This document shows, piece after piece, positions 2,301-62,308 of a stretch of DNA of 64,000 nt (within the stretch, counting starts at the first letter, position 1; the number at the start of each line of letters is the position of its first letter). Position numbers and translations under genes: made by a program. Under the pieces are notes generated by a model that saw nothing but the letters and a program-made list of their open reading frames with translations, searched no databases and had not been told where the DNA came from. The stretch comes from an uncultured Candidatus Saccharibacteria bacterium (lineage in GTDB: Bacteria; Patescibacteriota; Saccharimonadia; Saccharimonadales; AWTP1-31): positions 19,101 through 83,100 of the forward strand of contig CAZXTE010000001.1 in the NCBI GenBank assembly GCA_964643545.1. Direction: 5' to 3'.

Positions 2301-3243
2301 GAGAATTCCGAAAGTACTCTATGGTTTTATCTAAGCCTTCATCTAGCTCAATGGTCGGCTCCCAATGAAGCCTTCTTTTAGCTAATTCTATAACGGGTTT
2401 TCTCTGAAGTGGGTCGTCACCTGGAAGGGGCATATACACCATTTTTGAGTCACTACCCACCTTTTTTAGAACTTTTTCCGCTAGCTCTAACATAGTGAAC
2501 TCGGCTGGATTGCCAAGATTTATTGGTGTCACTTCTTCAGACTCAATCAACTTTACGATCCCAGCAACAAGATCATCAACGTAGCAGAAGCTTCGAGTTT
2601 GAGTGCCATCACCATAGACAGTAATAGGCTCTCCTCTTAGGGACTGCACGATAAAGTTTGATACTACTCTCCCGTCGTTTGCATCCATACGTGGGCCATA
2701 CGTATTAAAGAATCTGGCAATGCACGCTGATACCTCTGGGTGCTTTTTGGTATAAGAGTATATGAGGGCTTCGGCATACCGCTTAGACTCGTCGTACATG
2801 GCACGTGGGCCATAACAGTTAACGCTGCCTTTATAGGTCTCCGGTTGTGGGTGTACCTCAGGATCACCATAAACTTCGCTTGTACTTGCATGGAAGAAAC
2901 GTGCCTTATTTTTTTTCGCCAGATCTAGCAGCCTGAGCGTACCTTCAGACCCAACCCTTAGTGTTTCGATGGCAAGTCTTTGGTAATGTGGTGGGCTTGC
3001 GGGTGAAGCCATATTAAGAATAATGTCGTAAGATCTGTCGGTGACACTGTCTGGCAATTCTGACACAATGTCTGCCTCGATAAACGTAAATTGCTTGTTA
3101 TCTATAAGGTGCGTTACATTTTTCTTAGTACCCGTTGAAAGGTTATCCAAGCAGATTACGGAGTCTCCCTTGCCAATAAAGTAGTCGCAAAGATGTGATC
3201 CAAGAAACCCAGCACCACCCGCGATTAAAACCGACCTAGACAT
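2287..3243 (-). CDS. UDP-glucuronate decarboxylase (UDP-xylose synthase)-like NAD-dependent epimerase/dehydratase
   Basis: The internal Met start MSRSVLIAGGAGFLGSHLCD at 3243 gives a GxxGxxG Rossmann motif. A YxxxK (YDESKRY) motif is present and overall similarity is to the UXS/ArnA decarboxylase subfamily. The ORF-track start at 3288 would add 15 residues with no homology. Confidence 0.75.
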   Translation of the reverse strand: MSRSVLIAGGAGFLGSHLCDYFIGKGDSVICLDNLSTGTKKNVTHLIDNKQFTFIEADIVSELPDSVTDRSYDIILNMASPASPPHYQRLAIETLRVGSEGTLRLLDLAKKNKARFFHASTSEVYGDPEVHPQPETYKGSVNCYGPRAMYDESKRYAEALIYSYTKKHPEVSACIARFFNTYGPRMDANDGRVVSNFIVQSLRGEPITVYGDGTQTRSFCYVDDLVAGIVKLIESEEVTPINLGNPAEFTMLELAEKVLKKVGSDSKMVYMPLPGDDPLQRKPVIELAKRRLHWEPTIELDEGLDKTIEYFRNSLKLG

Positions 3244-4561
3244 ATGGGTCCACCAACCGCCTACCAATACTTTGGTAGTAAATTCCATGTTCTTCCATCG
3301 TTACTAAATCATATAGGTTCCTGCCATCAAAAACGACGGGGGCTTTAAGAAGCTCTTTGATCCTATTAAAGTCAGGGCTAAAAAACTCTTTCCAGTTAGT
3401 TGCAATGATCAGTGCATCAGCCCCATCAAGCACTTCGTACTCATCCTCGCCATAGCTAAGCCTTGGGTTGTCTGCCATCGCCTTCTTTACGTTTCCCATT
3501 GCTTGTGGGTCAAAAGCAACGACATTAGCACCCTGGCTCGTCAGTGATTCAATTATGGCAAGTGCTGGTGACTCACGTATATCGTCCGTATTGTCCTTAA
3601 AAGCAAGACCCCACAATGCAAATGTCTTACCCTCAACATTGCCCTCAAAATACTCCATAACTTTTTCTGGAACAACTAGTTTCTGGCGATCATTTGCCCC
3701 CATAACAGCCTCTAGGATACTAAAATCAAAACCACAATCTTCTGCTGTCTTGCTTAATGCCAAGACATCCTTTGGGAAACAGCTGCCACCGTAGCCTGGG
3801 CCTGCGTAAAGAAATTGATCACCTATCCGACTATCGGTACCCATCCCTGCCCGCACCATATCGACATCTGCACCAAGCAATGAACACATACCAGCAATCT
3901 GATTTATAAAACTAATCTTTGTTGCCAAGAAAGCATTCGATGCATACTTAATCATTTCTGCAGATGCTTCATCGGTTACGATAAGACTTTCTGGCTTCCT
4001 TCTGACAAATGGAGCATAAAGTTCTTTCATGACCCTGATCGCTCTGTCAGATTTACTACCTATAACCACTCTTTCAGGTGCAAGAAAGTCTGCAACTGCC
4101 TGCCCTTCTCTCAAGAACTCTGGGTTAGAGACTACATCAAAGTCGACTTTGGCGTTAACGGCAATTGCTTGCCTAACCTTTTCCGCAGTTCCCACAGGCA
4201 CTGTACTCTTGTCTACAATTACCGAGTAGCCCGCAAGCTTCTGCCCGATGTTGTCTGCAACGCCTAGAATATACGACAAGTCTGCGGAGCCATCTTCATC
4301 AGAAGGTGTTGGAAGTGCTAAGAAGATTGCTGCAGCGCCAAGAGCCTCTTCCAGATCGGTTGTAAAAGTTAAACGGCCTTCTTTGACGTTACGCTGAAAT
4401 ATATCGCCCAATCCTGGCTCAAAAATTGGCACTTCTCCAGCCTGCATTCTATGGACTTTTTCTCTATCAATATCTACACAGGTGACTTCGTTGCCCATCT
4501 CAGCGAAACAGGTACCCGTCACCAAACCAACGTATCCGGTTCCTACAACAGCAACTTTCAT
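3236..4561 (-). CDS. ugd: UDP-glucose 6-dehydrogenase
   Basis: 441 aa. The N-terminus MKVAVVGTGYVGLVTGTCFAEMGNEVTCVDID is the classic UDPG/GDP-mannose dehydrogenase NAD-binding domain, and the catalytic Cys region GGSCFPKD is present. Confidence 0.9.
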   Translation of the reverse strand: MKVAVVGTGYVGLVTGTCFAEMGNEVTCVDIDREKVHRMQAGEVPIFEPGLGDIFQRNVKEGRLTFTTDLEEALGAAAIFLALPTPSDEDGSADLSYILGVADNIGQKLAGYSVIVDKSTVPVGTAEKVRQAIAVNAKVDFDVVSNPEFLREGQAVADFLAPERVVIGSKSDRAIRVMKELYAPFVRRKPESLIVTDEASAEMIKYASNAFLATKISFINQIAGMCSLLGADVDMVRAGMGTDSRIGDQFLYAGPGYGGSCFPKDVLALSKTAEDCGFDFSILEAVMGANDRQKLVVPEKVMEYFEGNVEGKTFALWGLAFKDNTDDIRESPALAIIESLTSQGANVVAFDPQAMGNVKKAMADNPRLSYGEDEYEVLDGADALIIATNWKEFFSPDFNRIKELLKAPVVFDGRNLYDLVTMEEHGIYYQSIGRRLVDPYV

Positions 4562-4712
4562 ATGTTACCAACATTTATACCAAAGATAGTGGCGGTTATA
4601 AAGATGTAAACGATGAATGTTTGAATTCTACAACAACGCCATAGCACTAGTTACAATTCTGTTTTGTGGGGCACATTATGTTAGGATAAATGTACAATTA
4701 AACTTATCCGCG

Positions 4713-5441
4713 ATGGCTAAAACAGTAAAACTTTCAATAATTATTCCTTGTTTCAACGAAAAGGAGACAATCTTAACAATACTTCAAGAGATTGAGGACG
4801 TTCATCTAGGCTCTACTAAAAAAGAGATCATCATTATCGATGATGCCTCAACTGATGGTACACGAGAAATATTAACTCGTGTAGCTAGCAAAAACAAAAA
4901 CATAAAACTTCATTTTCAAAGTGTCAACCAAGGAAAAGGGGCTGCTTTGAAAAAAGGACTCCTATCTAGCACTGGGGATGTTGTGATCATCCAAGATGCA
5001 GATCTCGAATATGACCCCCAGGAATATGTACGCTTGCTCTACCCCATAGAGAGAGGCCACGCCGACGTAGTATACGGCTCACGATTTATTGGGGGTGAAC
5101 CACACAGAATTATTTATTTCCGTAATCAAGTTGCCAATAAGTTCTTAACCTGGCTATCGAATATTTTTACGGGTCTAAATCTAACGGACATGGAGACTTG
5201 TTACAAAATGATAGATGGTGAACTTGCGCGTATGCTCGCAAAAGACTTGAAGTCACAAAGATTCGGGTTTGAACCTGAAATTACTGCTCGCATTGCTAAA
5301 AATGGAGCTCGCGTCTATGAGATCGGCATCAGTTACTATGGGCGCAGTAAAGAGGAGGGCAAGAAGATTGGTTTTCGTGATGGCTTTAAAGCTATCTGGG
5401 AGATTGTTTATTTTAACCTGAGCGTACGCAAAAAACGATAA
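4713..5441 (+). CDS. family 2 glycosyltransferase (DPM1/ArnC-like)
   Basis: The internal start [16 protein letters not shown] is followed by [10 protein letters not shown], a DAD motif and YGSR. These are the GT2 polyprenyl-phosphate sugar transferase signatures. Confidence 0.8.
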
Positions 5442-10777: not shown

Positions 10778-11443
10778 TTGATGAAAGATTACGTACTTTC
10801 CATTTACGCTGATCGCTTTGATAAGGACGAGCAAAAACGTAAGGTAATGTGGCAGGTTCTCTGCAATGACTACTTTCAAAAGTTCATTGGCAAGAAAGAT
10901 GTCGTTCTTGACCTTGCTGCAGGATACTGTGAGTTTATTAATAATATAAAGTGCGGGAAGAAAATTGCTGTCGACCTAAATATGAAAACCAAGCAGAAGG
11001 CTGCAAAAAATGTAACAGTATACCGAGCGCTCAGTACCGCCCTGCCTAAAAAACTAACCGGTTCGGTGGATGTAGTATTTACCAGTAACTTCTTCGAGCA
11101 TTTAGATAGCAAAAATGAACTAATTGATACTCTAAAAGAGATACACCGAGTACTGAAACCAGGTGGTAAACTTATGGTTTTACAGCCCAATATTCGACTC
11201 GTCGGTAATCAGTATTGGGACTACGTTGACCACACATTGCCATTAACTGAAAAGAGTCTTGAAGAAGCTTTTCACTTAACTGATTTTGAACAATGGTTTC
11301 GTAAAGTAAGGTTTTTGCCATTTACAGCAAACTCACGTATGCCGGCGTATCCATTTCTAATTCGTCTGTATCTTCGACTTCCATTGGCTCAGTTTATTAT
11401 GGGTAAACAAACTTTTGTTATAGCTAAAAAAGTTAAGGCTTAG
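10778..11443 (+). CDS. class I SAM-dependent methyltransferase
   Basis: Motif I VLDLAAGYCEF and post-I VLKPGGKLMV are present. It lies inside the glycan locus. Confidence 0.7.
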   Translation: MMKDYVLSIYADRFDKDEQKRKVMWQVLCNDYFQKFIGKKDVVLDLAAGYCEFINNIKCGKKIAVDLNMKTKQKAAKNVTVYRALSTALPKKLTGSVDVVFTSNFFEHLDSKNELIDTLKEIHRVLKPGGKLMVLQPNIRLVGNQYWDYVDHTLPLTEKSLEEAFHLTDFEQWFRKVRFLPFTANSRMPAYPFLIRLYLRLPLAQFIMGKQTFVIAKKVKA

Positions 11444-12681
11444 TGCTTATTTAGACAAGTCAACCAATCACTACTCGGATTTACTTCGAGACAAACTCGC
11501 TCGCCAGAGTGAGCATTGTTGAATTTCTGAACTGAATTTGAAAAGTTTGTATACGATTTTTGTGGATAAGAGAAATCACTCGGTATTCCCAATAGAACCA
11601 TGCACAAGAGCAAGCCAACTGCTAATGACCTTGCATACTTATTAGCATACGAAAAGAGGAATAGTATTGCCGAAAAGAGGCCAATCATTGGAAGCCAAAA
11701 ATAACGATTTCCCCCTCCACTAACCATCGACGTCCACTGGGGTACGGTGTTGCTAGCCTGGGGTTTTATGAGCGCTACAAAGAAAATCAGCCAAGTGAAG
11801 ATTATGATCATCTTATACTTATACGGTGCTTTGATGAGAACAAAGATTAATAATGCTAATGTAACCGCACCAAGCACCGCAAACCAACCTTGATTGGCTA
11901 AAGCGTATTTGTTAATAGTCTCCATGCCTACCAGCAGTCCGCCAGTAATTCTACTACCTATTATAGCCAGAAACTTGACTGGGCTCGCGCCCAATCCCTG
12001 CGTAAATCTGGCTTCGGGCTTAGACAGAAGATACACAATTGTCTGCACGACCGACGTAACAGAATATACAGCCAGGTAGGGAAAGCCGACTTTCCCCCTC
12101 TTCCACAACCAGAAAGCGATTGGCAGGACTATGATGGAAAAAGGACCGGTTAGACCAGATATAAAAAGTACGCTGGTGTCAAAGACTTGCCAAAGTTTCG
12201 ACTCAGTTTTGCCAGAGATTAAAATCATGAACACGATCAACGCTAGGTGCCAGTTCATGTTGGTCAGGTTGGCGTTAACCTCAAAACTATTGGGCATCAG
12301 CAGATAGAAGGCTGCAAATAGTGACGAGTTTCGGGTTGAGCCAGTAAGCTTTTTGAATCGGTCGGTAAACAACAAAACAACAGGTAAAATCTGGACTACT
12401 GTTGCCGATAACACAAAAAATAATGGTGCTAGCTTCAACGGCAAGACCATGGATGTCGATGCGACCAGACGCATGCCGACTTGTAGGCTGCTGGCGTAGG
12501 GTTTAAAGATTGACAGAAGAATACCGTCGTTATAGGCCTGGCCGAACCACTTTATACCATCCTCTCCCCAGAATTGGGCATGCCTAAAAACGCTTGGATC
12601 GCGGAGGTAGACAAGCAAAAAACTGCCCAAAAATACTCCCAGAAGGAGCAGTATCTTGTTCTTAGTTAAATAATTCCGCAT
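11440..12681 (-). CDS. polytopic membrane protein, paralog of 16561-17853
   Basis: 413 aa with about 10 TM helices. The N-terminal motif FRHAQFWGEDG..W...AY and C-terminal tail ..NPSSDWLTCLNKH are shared with the 430-aa ORF at 16561-17853. This is likely a glycan polymerase or transferase family. Confidence 0.6.
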   Translation of the reverse strand: MRNYLTKNKILLLLGVFLGSFLLVYLRDPSVFRHAQFWGEDGIKWFGQAYNDGILLSIFKPYASSLQVGMRLVASTSMVLPLKLAPLFFVLSATVVQILPVVLLFTDRFKKLTGSTRNSSLFAAFYLLMPNSFEVNANLTNMNWHLALIVFMILISGKTESKLWQVFDTSVLFISGLTGPFSIIVLPIAFWLWKRGKVGFPYLAVYSVTSVVQTIVYLLSKPEARFTQGLGASPVKFLAIIGSRITGGLLVGMETINKYALANQGWFAVLGAVTLALLIFVLIKAPYKYKMIIIFTWLIFFVALIKPQASNTVPQWTSMVSGGGNRYFWLPMIGLFSAILFLFSYANKYARSLAVGLLLCMVLLGIPSDFSYPQKSYTNFSNSVQKFNNAHSGERVCLEVNPSSDWLTCLNKH

Positions 12682-14367: not shown

Positions 14368-14892
14368 ATGGTTAAAAATAAAAAGGTTAGAAAGACTAAG
14401 ATAATTGCACTCACCGCCGCTGTGCTGCTTCTAGCTGGCGGCTCTGCCTTTGCCTACGTAAAAACCAGACATCCAGCAGCCCCGGCGCCTCTGCCGGTCG
14501 GTGGAGTCAACCTTGATAAGCCAACTGCAGAAGAAATAAAAGAAACTGAAGAATTCAAGAAGCAGCAAGCAAAAGCGACGACTAACCCGCCCACCCAAAC
14601 GGCTTCTAACAACAATGCCAACGTTGTCATAACGACCATAACCACAACCGAAGCTAGGGGCTATGTATCGGGCACAGTTGAAGAAGGTGGCACCTGCACG
14701 CTAACGCTCACAAGAGGTACGGCAAAAGTAACAGCGAGCTCAACTGGCATACTCGATGTCAATAAAACGACCTGCTCCCAAATCACAATCGGCCCGGGTC
14801 AACTAAGCTCTGGTGAATGGGATGCAGTACTCAGTTACACTTCTCCAAGCATAAGTGGATCTTCTGCGGTCCAGAAACTAAAGGTACCCTGA
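14368..14892 (+). CDS. membrane-anchored secreted protein, unknown function
   Basis: 174 aa. It has an N-terminal signal anchor (IIALTAAVLLLAGGSAFA) followed by a Thr/Asn-rich linker. It is co-oriented with, and 3 nt upstream of, the next secreted-protein gene. Confidence 0.5.
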   Translation: MVKNKKVRKTKIIALTAAVLLLAGGSAFAYVKTRHPAAPAPLPVGGVNLDKPTAEEIKETEEFKKQQAKATTNPPTQTASNNNANVVITTITTTEARGYVSGTVEEGGTCTLTLTRGTAKVTASSTGILDVNKTTCSQITIGPGQLSSGEWDAVLSYTSPSISGSSAVQKLKVP

Positions 14893-14895
14893 GCT

Positions 14896-16560
14896 ATGTT
14901 GAGACCATTAAAGAGATTTGGTGCATTTATCAGCTTGCTAACCGCAGCGGTACTAATCGTGTTTGGACTTCAGCCAGCCTACGCAGCATCTGGCAACACC
15001 TTCAAAGCTGATCGTATTATTGATGACGCCATATTTTTTAACACAGCCCAGTTGTCCGTTACAGACATACAGAATTTCCTAAATAGTAAGGTCCCAACGT
15101 GCGACACCAATCATACCGGCAGCGGAAGCAACCAACCGCCGTTTACCTGTCTCAAGGACTACTCACAAACCATCAGCGATAGGGCGGCAGACCAGTATTG
15201 TACTGGTGCCGTAAGCGCTGGCACAAAGTCGTCGGCACAGATTATTAAAGATGTCGCAAATGCCTGTGGAATCAATGCTGCTGTACTAATAGTATTGCTC
15301 CAAAAAGAACAGTCCTTAATTACTGATACGTGGCCATGGGCATCACAGTACGAAAAAGCTACCGGTTACTATTGCCCCGATGACCCATCTAGGCCGGGCT
15401 GGTGTGACCCGGAATATGCAGGCTTTTTCAACCAAGTGTGGTATGCTGCCAGACAATTCCAGAGGTACGTGAAACAGCCGGGTTCTTTTAACTTTGCTGT
15501 TGGAAGAGCAAGCAGTGTACTCTTCCAGGCAAACCGCCCTAGTTGTGGTGGCACAACCCTTACTATGCAAACCCGAGCAACCGCAGCACTTTACAACTAT
15601 ACACCGTACCAGCCTAGTCAGGCTGCTCTAGACTATCTCTACGGCGTAGCCCCTGGTGACCCTAACACACCCGGCACGCCAGCTTATTGTGCAGCTTATG
15701 GGAACAGGAATTTCTGGCGACTCTTCAATGATTGGTTTGGGCCAACTACTTCAGATAACAATACGGATGTTATAAGTTTTGTTCGGCTTAACCATGCATC
15801 AGGGAACGTTGAGGTAGTAGGCTATACCTCAATAAGCGAGTACTCTTACCCCGCTCGGCATAACTTCTCTAGCTATCCCTCCGTACCAGCCGATGGCAAT
15901 GTGATACCCCTATTCTGGCCTAACGGTGACCTCGTATTCGTGAGACTTAATCATGCCTCAGGAAATGTCGAAGTGGTGAGCTATAGTGCGAATAGCGGAT
16001 ATAAACAACTTGTTAATATTGCAATAACTGGCTACCCCTCCGTGCCTGGCGATGGCAATGTTATCCCAATGTTTAAACCTAACGGGGATTTAAGTTTCAT
16101 TCGACTAAACCACAGTTCAGGAAATGTCGAAGTGGTGAGCTATGGCCCCGGAAGTAATTATAGAAGTCTCACCAGAATTCAAAATTCTAGCTATCCCTCC
16201 GTACCAGCCGATGGCAATGTGATACCCCTATTCTGGCCTAACGGTGACCTCGTATTCGTGAGACTTAATCATGCCTCAGGAAATGTCGAAGTGGTGAGCT
16301 ATAGTGCGAATAGCGGATATAAACAACTTGTTAATATTGCAATAACTGGCTACCCCTCCGTGCCTGGCGATGGCAATGTTATCCCAATGTTTAAACCTAA
16401 CGGGGATTTAAGTTTCATTCGACTAAACCACAGTTCAGGAAATGTCGAAGTAGCTACCTACAGCGCCTCTAGCAACTACAAGCAACTTATTGATTTACGC
16501 CTGACTGGTTACCCTAATGTAGCTAATGATGGTGCCGTAATTCCGCTATTCACCAGGTAG
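14896..16560 (+). CDS. secreted protein with six ~53-aa beta-strand repeats (NGDL.F.RLNH.SGNVEVV)
   Basis: 554 aa. Signal peptide with AYA cleavage site, then a Cys-containing N-terminal domain. The 53-aa repeat recurs six times, and two of the units are encoded by 100%-identical DNA. Confidence 0.7.
   Translation: MLRPLKRFGAFISLLTAAVLIVFGLQPAYAASGNTFKADRIIDDAIFFNTAQLSVTDIQNFLNSKVPTCDTNHTGSGSNQPPFTCLKDYSQTISDRAADQYCTGAVSAGTKSSAQIIKDVANACGINAAVLIVLLQKEQSLITDTWPWASQYEKATGYYCPDDPSRPGWCDPEYAGFFNQVWYAARQFQRYVKQPGSFNFAVGRASSVLFQANRPSCGGTTLTMQTRATAALYNYTPYQPSQAALDYLYGVAPGDPNTPGTPAYCAAYGNRNFWRLFNDWFGPTTSDNNTDVISFVRLNHASGNVEVVGYTSISEYSYPARHNFSSYPSVPADGNVIPLFWPNGDLVFVRLNHASGNVEVVSYSANSGYKQLVNIAITGYPSVPGDGNVIPMFKPNGDLSFIRLNHSSGNVEVVSYGPGSNYRSLTRIQNSSYPSVPADGNVIPLFWPNGDLVFVRLNHASGNVEVVSYSANSGYKQLVNIAITGYPSVPGDGNVIPMFKPNGDLSFIRLNHSSGNVEVATYSASSNYKQLIDLRLTGYPNVANDGAVIPLFTR
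15871..16455 (+). repeat. perfect tandem duplication inside the secreted repeat-protein gene
   Basis: The segment 15871-16137 is repeated identically at 16189-16455, with a 318-nt period equal to 106 aa in frame. The copies diverge only after gaaatgtcgaagt. Confidence 0.85.
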
Positions 16561-17853
16561 TTAGTTCTTCTTCAGGCACGTTTTCCACGCTTCGTCGGGA
16601 TTTATATCAAAGCAATATTGTTGCCCAGGACGTAAGGTCGAGAACTCGTTAGCTTGGCCTCTGAAGTTAAACTTCTTCAACTCTTTTACTCTAAAGTAGA
16701 ATGGGAAAAATAGCACGTATAAAGCCACCAAAGCTGAGGCAATCTTGCCCATGTTATTCCTGGTAAGTGCCGCAAAGTAGACCAGTATCAGCAGCCAGCA
16801 GAAGATTGGGATGAAAAAGTATCGTGCGCCGAAGGAATTTAGTTGTAACATATCCCAGAACTGCACAATCGGAACAGTTTGAGCTCGTACGAATGTCGAA
16901 GCATAAATAAGAGACCCGAATAATATCACTGCTCGCATATAGATGTTGGCCTTGATGAAGGCGTAGATCGTCATAATAATAGCGAACATACCCAACATAA
17001 ACATCTGGGGCGACCCTGCTATCTCTTTGGTGATTATTTTCTCGCCTGCGACTGGCAAAGCAAAGAACCTCATACCGGTAATCTTAATCGGTTTACTATA
17101 GTTATTTATTAGTTCTCTTTTCTGAGATACCAGACTGGCAGTTCTTTGTTGGGGGGCCTGTACGTAGACAGCTATCTGAATGAGCGCACAAGCAACTATA
17201 GCAGCAGCCTTAATCCAGTGCATTCTATTTTTGCTCTTTTGAGCAGTAATTAAGTATGCAGCCGTTAGTGCTAGGAAGGGAGCAAACGGCCCACTCAACC
17301 CAGACACAATAAGCACAGTAATATCAAATACCAACCATTTCTTCTGCGTTTTTGGGCCCCTAACTAGTACCAAAATTGCGGCAGCGGCCAAGAACCAAAT
17401 AGTATTTGTAAAATTTCCATAAATCTCAGCAATGCCCGGAATAAGTAGGTATAGAAAAGTGAATGTCATCTTTGATCGCACACTGAATTTTTTTATAAGG
17501 GTGCTATCCGACCAGAATATAAACAATGGTAGGACCATGACCAGAATGGCCACTAAATTTGCCGCCGCTGGGGCGAATCTTAGGGGTACCAACAGCAGCG
17601 GTAGAGCTACCAATCGAGGGAAGAAGGGCAAGATTCCAGAATAAGTCTTGAAGATACTGTAGCCGCCACGCATATAGGCATCTCTATAAAATACGGCGAA
17701 GTCTTCTGCCCAAAACTGAGCATTAAAAAGCAGCTCCGGCCTTCGTAATACGATTACGCCAACGCCAATCAAACACACTACTACCGCTTTTTTCATATCT
17801 GAAAGTACGACAAATTTACGCCAAATGTTAGCTGCCAGCGACTTTATTTCCAT
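16561..17853 (-). CDS. polytopic membrane protein, paralog of 11440-12681
   Basis: 430 aa with about 10 TM helices. It shares the N-terminal motif (LFNAQFWAEDF) and C-terminal motif (INPDEAWKTCLKKN) with the ORF at 11440-12681. Confidence 0.6.
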   Translation of the reverse strand: MEIKSLAANIWRKFVVLSDMKKAVVVCLIGVGVIVLRRPELLFNAQFWAEDFAVFYRDAYMRGGYSIFKTYSGILPFFPRLVALPLLLVPLRFAPAAANLVAILVMVLPLFIFWSDSTLIKKFSVRSKMTFTFLYLLIPGIAEIYGNFTNTIWFLAAAAILVLVRGPKTQKKWLVFDITVLIVSGLSGPFAPFLALTAAYLITAQKSKNRMHWIKAAAIVACALIQIAVYVQAPQQRTASLVSQKRELINNYSKPIKITGMRFFALPVAGEKIITKEIAGSPQMFMLGMFAIIMTIYAFIKANIYMRAVILFGSLIYASTFVRAQTVPIVQFWDMLQLNSFGARYFFIPIFCWLLILVYFAALTRNNMGKIASALVALYVLFFPFYFRVKELKKFNFRGQANEFSTLRPGQQYCFDINPDEAWKTCLKKN

Positions 17854-54829: not shown

Positions 54830-54919
<90 letters not shown>

Positions 54920-54940
54920 AGACTAGCTTTTCGTGTTACG

Positions 54941-55033
54941 TGGCGGAGGAGGAGGGATTCGAACCCTCGCGGGAGATTGCTCCCCCCTAACGATTTAGCA
55001 AACCGTCCCCTTCAGCCTCTTGGGTACTCCTCC
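54941..55033 (-). tRNA. tRNA-Ser (anticodon GCU)
   Basis: The reverse complement gives acceptor GGAGGAG/CTCCTCC and anticodon loop UUGCUAA, with a long variable arm. The T-loop is GGTTCGAATCC and the CCA is encoded. Confidence 0.85.
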
Positions 55034-55740: not shown

Positions 55741-55817
55741 GCACCCGTAGCTCAGCTGGATAGAGCGTTGGCTTGCGGAGCCAAAGGTCGTAGGTTCGAA
55801 TCCTGTCGGGTGTACCA
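55741..55817 (+). tRNA. tRNA-Arg (anticodon read as GCG)
   Basis: The backbone closely resembles bacterial tRNA-Arg (GCACCCGTAGCTCAGCTGGATAGAGC...GGTTCGAATCC...CCA). The anticodon loop is UUGCGGA. The anticodon call is less certain than the gene call. Confidence 0.75.
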
Positions 55818-62218: not shown

Positions 62219-62308
62219 GGAGAGGTGTCCGAGTGGTTGAAGGAGCTGCTCTCGAAAAGCAGTATGCCGGCAACGGTATCGAGGGTTCGAATCCCTCTCT
62301 CTCCGCCA
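62219..62308 (+). tRNA. tRNA-Ser (anticodon CGA)
   Basis: A type-II tRNA with acceptor GGAGAGG/CCTCTCC, anticodon loop CUCGAAA, a long variable arm, and CCA encoded. Confidence 0.85.

What the first reader, a model, noticed from the sequence alone, without database searches (positions are those of the whole stretch)
15871..16455. 100%-identical 267-nt tandem duplication (period 318 nt) inside a secreted repeat protein
The segment beginning AGCTATCCCTCCGTACCAGCCGATGGCAATG at 15871 recurs exactly from 16189. It matches for ~267 nt before diverging. It encodes two of the six ~53-aa NGDL.F.RLNH.SGNVEVV repeats. The other repeats are clearly diverged. This points to recent unequal recombination or slippage and to possible repeat-number variation in a surface-exposed protein. 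It is also a likely hotspot for assembly collapse or expansion.
Basis: seen in the sequence. Interest (0 to 1): 0.6.

Follow-up and report, generated by a model that had tools for sequence, protein, structure and literature searches.

The report
Gene-converted blades in a lectin propeller
A 266-base stretch really is repeated exactly inside a secreted cell-wall hydrolase gene of a Saccharibacteria-like bacterium, but it looks like one blade pair of a five-bladed sugar-binding propeller recently overwriting another, a known way repeat proteins evolve, not a new duplication.

Summary
Window 15868-16133 equals 16186-16451 exactly (266 nt, period 318, 52-nt spacer), inside ORF 14896-16560.

The protein has three parts:
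- a signal peptide;
- a lysozyme-fold, GH73-like peptidoglycan glycosidase domain that matches no Pfam family;
- a five-bladed beta-propeller, not six repeats. The best structural match is tachylectin-2, and the blades are a VCBS/FG-GAP-like type that lacks the DxDxDG motif.

The exact tract covers about 1.7 blades. Blade 2 equals blade 4, and the start of blade 3 equals the start of blade 5.

The pattern does not fit a fresh tandem duplication. There are only 1.84 periods. Identity falls from 100% to about 44% at both edges. The variable cores of blades 1, 3 and 5 are positionally orthologous to those of the closest homologue, which has five diverged blades. The best reading is a recent intragenic gene-conversion tract that left blade number unchanged.

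Similar exact tracts arose independently in orthologues (316 nt at offset 318; 170 nt at offset 477). Two near-identical homologues differ by exactly one blade.

[quoted passage not shown] Copy number in this assembly cannot be checked without reads. Interest is modest.

The parts
14896..16560 (+). Complete gene (554 aa plus stop). It encodes a secreted two-domain protein: a peptidoglycan glycosidase-like domain followed by a five-bladed beta-propeller.
   Evidence: ORF. The exact protein is P0001 in NCBI, and there are 3138 homologues, mostly Saccharibacteria/Patescibacteria.
14896..14985 (+). Predicted Sec signal peptide (aa 1-30, MLRPLKRFGAFISLLTAAVLIVFGLQPAYA|AS).
   Evidence: Read directly from the sequence: a basic n-region, a hydrophobic core and an AYA-A cleavage motif. 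AF2 models a helix at residues 6-23. No dedicated predictor was run, so this is an inference.
14986..15756 (+). N-terminal lysozyme-fold domain (aa about 31-287) with invariant E138/Q139 in the LLQKEQSL motif. Putative peptidoglycan glycosidase.
15757..16557 (+). C-terminal five-bladed beta-propeller (aa 288-554), made of five 53-aa repeats. Repeat boundaries: R0 15763-15921, R1 15922-16080, R2 16081-16239, R3 16240-16398, R4 16399-16557.
15868..16133 (+). Copy 1 of the exact 266-nt tract (aa 325-413): tail of R0, all of R1, and the first 18 codons of R2.
16134..16185 (+). 52-nt unique spacer, the variable core of R2 (VSYGPGSNYRSLTRIQNS). It is orthologous to the R2 core of P0002 (13/18 identical, against at most 7/18 to the other blades).
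16186..16451 (+). Copy 2 of the exact 266-nt tract (aa 431-519): tail of R2, all of R3, and the first 18 codons of R4.

Best explanation
The gene encodes a secreted cell-wall enzyme: a signal peptide, a lysozyme-fold (GH73-like) peptidoglycan glycosidase domain, and a five-bladed tachylectin-2-like beta-propeller. The propeller most likely acts as a multivalent glycan- or cell-wall-binding module.

The 266-nt exact repeat is a recent intragenic gene-conversion tract, meaning non-reciprocal homologous recombination between repeats two blades (318 nt) apart. The segment 'tail of blade n, blade n+1, head of blade n+2' was copied over its paralogous segment two blades away. Blade 2 thereby became identical to blade 4 while the blade number stayed at five.

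Shown here: the exact repeat, its abrupt borders, the five-blade fold, positional orthology of the unconverted blades with a five-blade outgroup, and independent tracts of the same kind in orthologues.

Inferred: the recombination mechanism, the direction of copying (undetermined), the lectin and hydrolase functions, and secretion.
For: 1. The tract is 266 nt of 100% identity at offset 318. The 60-nt flanks are 45% (left) and 43% (right) identical, and there are only 1.84 periods. A tandem duplication or single unequal crossover would give 2.0 periods.
2. The closest homologue, P0002 (73% aa identity; DNA in L083), has five diverged blades. Its R1 and R3 are 61% identical at DNA level.
3. The variable cores show one-to-one orthology with P0002: R0-R0 15/18, R2-R2 13/18, R4-R4 16/18, against at most 10/18 off-diagonal. 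The five-blade layout, including the 52-nt spacer, therefore predates the event.
4. Five is the modal repeat number in the family (28 of 45). It matches a confident five-bladed model and five-bladed structural neighbours.
5. Independent events occur in orthologues. The P0008 gene (L001) has 316 nt exact at offset 318. The P0012 gene (L002) has 170 nt exact at offset 477. L088 has 82 nt at offset 318.
6. Interior blades are more alike within a protein (0.59-0.67) than the same blade position is between proteins (0.51-0.57). This is the signature of concerted evolution.
Against: - No reads or second genome of this organism were available, so the copy number and the identity of the two copies rest on a single assembly.
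- The direction of conversion cannot be told. The tract is equally similar at DNA level to R1 and R3 of P0002 (0.65 and 0.65), and at protein level it is mosaic.
- A multi-step history, contraction to three blades followed by re-expansion and a further exchange, is less parsimonious but not excluded.
- The outgroup is fairly distant (73% aa identity).
- Both the lectin function and the hydrolase function rest on fold similarity only.
Confidence: 0.65

Rival explanations
1. This is the first reader's view: a true recent tandem duplication that changed copy number. A three-blade ancestor (R0-A-B) would have gained a two-blade unit by unequal crossing-over or replication slippage, becoming R0-A-B-A-B.
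For: Three-repeat homologues with exactly the R0-A-B layout exist (P0027). The orthologue in L001 has a full 2.0 copies (316 of 318 nt exact), which fits such an event. Blades alternate W-type and K-type across the family, which suggests an old two-blade unit.
Against: Only 1.84 periods are exact, and both borders are abrupt at about 44% identity. The 52-nt spacer (R2 core) and the R4 core each have their own orthologue in P0002 at the same blade position. R2 and R4 were therefore already distinct before the event. A single duplication would make the R2 and R4 cores identical, or make the left flank match the spacer, and neither is seen.
Confidence: 0.15
2. This is an assembly artefact. The X-Y-X structure, or its copy number, would come from mis-resolving a repeat in a metagenome assembly, or from polishing that homogenised two similar blades.
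For: The source appears to be a metagenome-assembled Saccharibacteria-like genome, represented by a single contig record. A 266-nt exact repeat is longer than typical short reads and k-mers. Some homologues with fewer blades could themselves be collapsed assemblies.
Against: The minimal path through an X-Y-X graph is what is seen, and it yields exactly five blades. That is the family's modal number, the ORF is intact, and the model is a confident closed propeller. Assemblers do not turn paralogues of about 60% identity into identical copies. Independent assemblies from other samples show the same kind of exact tract in orthologues.
Confidence: 0.12
3. The identity is maintained by purifying selection on an old duplication rather than by a recent event.
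For: Blade motifs (NGDL.F.RLNH.SGNVE) are strongly conserved across the family.
Against: There are zero differences in 266 nt, synonymous sites included. Other blade pairs in the same gene are 59-67% identical at DNA level, and orthologous blades in P0002 are 62-69% identical. Selection on the protein cannot freeze third codon positions.
Confidence: 0.02

Closest known systems
Locally repetitive beta-propellers / recently amplified blades (Pereira & Lupas 2022, PMC9218822; Afanasieva et al. 2019, PMC6805158)
   Same: This is a beta-propeller in which a subset of blades is identical, or nearly so, while the rest are diverged. The paper describes VCBS-like propellers with internal blades of up to 100% identity inside an older amplification above 60% identity. 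It also describes independent events in close homologues. Here too, orthologues carry independent exact tracts.
   Different: The identical blades here are not adjacent: blade 2 equals blade 4, a two-blade period. The borders cut through blades. Blade number is unchanged relative to the outgroup. These features point to conversion between existing blades rather than amplification from a single blade.
Tachylectin-2 (PDB 1tl2), five-bladed GlcNAc/GalNAc-binding lectin
   Different: Sequence identity is only 13%. There was no Pfam Tachylectin hit at E <= 1. The repeats are 53 aa (that tachylectin-2 repeats are 47 aa is from my own knowledge). This domain is fused to a cell-wall hydrolase domain in a bacterium. 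Sugar binding was not tested.
VCBS / FG-GAP (integrin-alpha-like) beta-propeller blades
   Same: Paralogues with the same N-domain carry VCBS/FG-GAP repeats (PF13517, PF01839). Profile-profile comparison of the 53-aa repeat with those blades gives probability 79.6% and E 1.5e-5. One homologue of the propeller carries a precomputed PF13517 hit (P0129).
   Different: The superfamily's DxDxDG cation-binding motif (PMC9218822) is absent, and the equivalent position reads P-N-G-D-L. There is no Pfam VCBS or FG-GAP hit for this protein. There are five blades, whereas integrin-type FG-GAP propellers have seven (from my own knowledge).
GH73 N-acetylglucosaminidases and lysozyme-fold lysins (LytB 7pj3, phage Andhra gp10, PlyCA, lytic transglycosylases)
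   Different: No sequence-level match to Pfam Glucosaminidase or SLT, nor to any PDB chain, even with a profile. The equivalence of catalytic residues was not verified.

Membership tests
Locally repetitive beta-propeller (Pereira & Lupas 2022) | The domain is a beta-propeller. | tested here: met
Locally repetitive beta-propeller (Pereira & Lupas 2022) | Some blades are highly identical while neighbouring blades of the same propeller are diverged. | tested here: met
   R1 equals R3 (100%). The other pairs are 48-66% identical at aa level and 53-67% at DNA level. Caveat: the paper's definition speaks of consecutive blades. Here the identical blades alternate.
Gene-conversion tract between paralogous repeats | An identical tract is bounded on both sides by abruptly diverged paralogous sequence. 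| tested here: met
   The offset-318 identity profile is 1.0 inside the tract and 0.45 / 0.43 in the 60-nt flanks.
Gene-conversion tract between paralogous repeats | Copy number is unchanged relative to an outgroup that has diverged copies at the same positions. | tested here: met
   P0002 has five blades. The cores of R0, R2 and R4 are positionally orthologous (15/18, 13/18, 16/18).
Gene-conversion tract between paralogous repeats | Donor and recipient can be identified. | tested here: inconclusive
   The tract is equally similar to P0002 R1 and R3 at DNA level (0.65 and 0.65). At protein level it is mosaic: the core is closer to R1 (13 vs 11 of 18) and the tail closer to R3 (12 vs 8 of 14).
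Tachylectin-2 family | Five-bladed propeller fold. | tested here: met
Tachylectin-2 family | Sequence membership (Pfam Tachylectin profile). | tested here: not met
   No such hit at E <= 1 in Pfam. Identity to 1tl2 is 13%.
Tachylectin-2 family | GlcNAc/GalNAc binding, one site per blade. | not testable with these tools
   This needs a glycan array or a co-crystal structure.
VCBS / FG-GAP superfamily | DxDxDG cation-binding motif in the blades. | tested here: not met
   The blades read ...P(L/M)F(W/K)PNGDL(V/S)F... at the equivalent position. The motif definition comes from PMC9218822.
VCBS / FG-GAP superfamily | Detectable profile homology to VCBS/FG-GAP blades. | tested here: inconclusive
   hhalign against the VCBS-type blades of paralogues gives probability 79.6% and E 1.5e-5 over 37 columns. 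There is no Pfam hit.
GH73 / lysozyme-like peptidoglycan glycosidases | Lysozyme-like alpha/beta fold. | tested here: met
GH73 / lysozyme-like peptidoglycan glycosidases | Sequence membership (Pfam Glucosaminidase or SLT). | tested here: not met
   No hit in Pfam or NCBIfam, nor in PDB sequence and profile searches.
GH73 / lysozyme-like peptidoglycan glycosidases | A catalytic Glu at the structurally equivalent position. | tested here: inconclusive
   E138 is invariant in 25 of 25 sequences and nearly invariant in 65.

The most novel reading that the evidence does not exclude
Recurrent intragenic homogenisation, with occasional gain or loss of blades, could be an adaptive feature of the lectin-like propellers that Saccharibacteria fuse to cell-wall hydrolases. 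By copying one blade over others, a new sugar-binding specificity would spread to several binding sites at once. Switching blade number would change valency. Either would let an episymbiont track changes in the surface glycans of its actinobacterial host. Repeated independent exact tracts in orthologues and in unrelated C-terminal repeat modules of the same hydrolase family are compatible with this idea. They are equally expected from neutral recombination between tandem repeats.
Probability: 0.1. Interest if true: 0.6.

Novelty: new member of a known kind. Interest (0 to 1): 0.3.

Why it matters
The finding gives a clean, datable example of concerted evolution inside a beta-propeller. A two-blade-period conversion tract sits in a five-bladed tachylectin-like domain, and independent parallel events occur in orthologues. 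This adds a copy-number-neutral route to the published picture of propellers being continually re-amplified.

It also assigns a probable function to an unannotated and very large protein family of more than 3000 members in Saccharibacteria, with relatives in Actinomycetes: a secreted lysozyme-fold peptidoglycan glycosidase with swappable wall- or glycan-binding modules. That is relevant to how these episymbionts deal with cell walls.

Practically, the locus and its relatives are places where short-read assemblies can collapse or break. Blade counts taken from metagenome-assembled genomes should therefore be treated with care.

Tried and rejected
- Pfam and NCBIfam scans of the whole protein gave only sub-threshold noise such as PrpF and TiaS.
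- PDB sequence searches, with the single protein and with a 65-sequence profile, gave nothing.
- An exact-protein lookup for the source contig found no record. The cluster lookup gave no accession or name.
- An exact 32-mer from the tract was not found in JGI metagenome contigs, so no second sampling of this strain was available.
- A second homologue search with the propeller alone returned only 15 proteins because of the word-candidate limit. It added little beyond the CHAP fusions.
- A literature search for Saccharibacteria with peptidoglycan hydrolase or lectin found nothing on this family.
- I looked for a donor paralogue elsewhere in the window and found none.
- I considered purifying selection on an old duplication and rejected it, because there are no synonymous differences.
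- I considered simple tandem duplication and ranked it below conversion, because of the 1.84 periods, the abrupt borders and the orthology of spacer and flanks.

Full report
**Observation**

Tandem Repeats Finder reports window 15868-16451 as period 318, 1.8 copies, 100% matches and no indels. A direct string comparison shows that 15868-16133 and 16186-16451 are identical over 266 nt. The match cannot be extended by a single base on either side. BLASTN of the tract against the window finds only these two perfect copies, plus the expected 67-72% matches to the other repeats of the same gene.

With the other repeats about 67% identical, a run of 266 matches has a chance probability near 5e-47. 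The protein has five repeats, not six.

**What the gene is**

The repeat lies in ORF 14896-16560 (+), 554 aa. The N-terminus reads as a Sec signal peptide; I judged this from the sequence and ran no predictor. No Pfam or NCBIfam family reaches threshold. No PDB chain matches by sequence, even with a profile.

The homologue search returned 3138 relatives. Where they are named, they come from Saccharibacteria, Saccharimonadales or other Patescibacteria MAGs. The exact protein is a singleton from one NCBI contig of 179 kb, and the next relative is 73% identical.

The first 290 or so residues are shared with proteins carrying many different C-terminal modules, including FG-GAP/VCBS, B-lectin, DUF5648 and Ig-like repeats. 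The 53-aa repeat module also occurs behind CHAP domains.

- **Repeat type.** A profile-profile comparison of the 53-aa repeat with the VCBS/FG-GAP-type blades of paralogues gives probability 79.6% and E 1.5e-5. The DxDxDG cation-binding motif that defines that superfamily (PMC9218822) is replaced by PNGDL.

Neighbouring genes are glycosyltransferases, methyltransferases and large polytopic membrane proteins. A small secreted protein directly upstream is syntenic in orthologous loci.

My reading is a secreted peptidoglycan glycosidase with a multivalent, lectin-like five-bladed propeller as its targeting module. The function is inferred from fold only.

**Anatomy of the exact tract**

The tract encodes aa 325-413 and again aa 431-519. 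In repeat terms it covers the last 18 residues of R0 (or R2), all of R1 (or R3), and the first 18 residues of R2 (or R4). R1 therefore equals R3. The 52-nt spacer (16134-16185) is the variable core of R2.

A sliding comparison at offset 318 gives 100% identity inside the tract. The 60 nt to the left are 45% identical and the 60 nt to the right 43%.

**Mechanism**

A tandem duplication of a 318-nt unit, or a single unequal crossover between copies misaligned by 318 nt, must produce two full periods (636 nt) of identity. Later divergence would appear as scattered substitutions. Here only 1.84 periods are identical and both edges are abrupt.

The unconverted parts have their own orthologues at the same positions in P0002, the closest homologue, whose five blades are all diverged (its R1 and R3 are 61% identical at DNA level).

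| Variable core, this gene vs P0002 | Identical residues | Off-diagonal comparison |
|---|---|---|
| R0 vs R0 | 15/18 | at most 5/18 |
| R2 vs R2 | 13/18 | at most 7/18 |
| R4 vs R4 | 16/18 | at most 10/18 |

Five blades with distinct R2 and R4 therefore existed before the two lineages split. Only afterwards was the stretch R0-tail/R1/R2-head made identical to R2-tail/R3/R4-head. That pattern indicates a gene-conversion tract (equivalently, a double crossover between misaligned copies) that leaves blade number unchanged.

The direction cannot be determined. The tract is 65% identical at DNA level to both R1 and R3 of P0002, and it is mosaic at protein level.

**Family context**

Five repeats is the mode (28 of 45 repeat-bearing homologues). 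Four, three and two repeats also occur, in 10, 3 and 4 homologues.

Interior blades are more alike within a protein (mean 0.59-0.67) than the same blade position is between proteins (0.51-0.57). This is the expected sign of concerted evolution.

Independent exact tracts exist in orthologues from other samples:

| Gene / locus | Exact tract |
|---|---|
| P0008 gene (L001; 60% aa identity to this protein) | 316 nt at offset 318 |
| P0012 gene (L002) | 170 nt at offset 477 |
| L088 | 82 nt at offset 318 |
| Several others | 59-103 nt |

P0025 and P0030 are near-identical proteins that differ by exactly one 53-aa blade, bounded by the FRPNGDLSFI motif. Blade-number polymorphism, or assembly collapse, therefore does occur in the family.

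Other C-terminal repeat modules of the same hydrolase family also carry long exact tandem repeats: L073 has 431 nt at offset 447, and L068 has 562 nt at offset 621.

**Comparison with what is known**

Pereira & Lupas (2022, PMC9218822) describe highly repetitive propellers. About 8% of them are 'locally repetitive'. Their examples include VCBS-like propellers with internal blades of up to 100% identity embedded among blades above 60% identical. They also report independent amplification events in close homologues.

This locus belongs to that phenomenon. It differs in three ways. The identical blades alternate, giving a two-blade period. The tract borders cut through blades. The outgroup shows an unchanged blade count, which favours conversion over amplification.

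By fold the propeller is tachylectin-2-like. By Pfam sequence criteria it is not a member of the Tachylectin, VCBS or FG-GAP families.

**Caveats**

- Everything about this locus rests on one assembly. No reads and no second sampling of the organism could be found.
- An assembly error in copy number cannot be excluded. The assembled structure does give exactly the five blades expected for the family and the fold. Assemblers also do not make paralogues of about 60% identity identical.
- Some of the 2-4-blade homologues may be collapsed assemblies, so the family's apparent repeat-number variation may be overstated.

**Verdict**

This is a recent recombination event in a secreted repeat protein, most likely a copy-number-neutral gene conversion between blades of a five-bladed lectin-like propeller. 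It is a new example of a known evolutionary behaviour in a previously unannotated protein family, and its interest is modest.

Noticed in passing
L043-L082, e.g. L045 Leifsonia poae, L047 Plantibacter, L050 Agromyces humatus, L074 Microbacterium: The N-terminal lysozyme-fold domain (37-45% identity to this protein) is also encoded in many cultured Actinomycetes, mainly Microbacteriaceae and Geodermatophilaceae. These are the kind of bacteria that host Saccharibacteria. This may reflect a shared family or horizontal transfer between episymbiont and host.
   Followed up: no
L073 3719-4596 (gene 2501-4726); L068 4170-5352: Other members of the same hydrolase family have different C-terminal repeat modules that also carry long exact tandem DNA repeats. 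L073 has 431 nt at offset 447 (149-aa units). L068 (Agromyces sp.) has 562 nt at offset 621. I did not check which gene the L068 repeat lies in.
   Followed up: partly
P0036 (815 aa, ENA contig of 384 kb): This homologue consists of three tandem copies of the N-terminal catalytic-like domain, with a 154-aa exact internal repeat at offset 273. In copies 1 and 3 the LLQKEQSL motif reads LMQTKQGL, so the conserved Glu is replaced there.
   Followed up: no
P0025 vs P0030: Two near-identical homologues (4 substitutions) differ by exactly one 53-aa blade, with the junction in the repeated FRPNGDLSFI motif. This is either real blade-number polymorphism or an assembly collapse.
   Followed up: partly
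window 11440-12681 (-) and 16561-17853 (-): Two paralogous polytopic membrane proteins (28% identity, E 7e-40) with no Pfam match lie on either side of the locus. Both end in a conserved C...NP...W.TCL.K motif. Neighbours are GT2 glycosyltransferases and methyltransferases, so this looks like a cell-envelope glycan locus.
   Followed up: partly
window 14368-14892 (+): A small secreted protein of 174 aa with no Pfam family ends 4 nt before the hydrolase gene starts. A protein of 172-185 aa occupies the same position in orthologous loci L001, L002 and L084. It may be a functional partner or an immunity/inhibitor protein.
   Followed up: no
window 54830-55033 (-), 55741-55817 (+), 62219-62308 (+): Four tRNA genes were found: Ser-TGA, Ser-GCT, Arg-GCG and Ser-CGA. 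Nothing unusual was noted.
   Followed up: no
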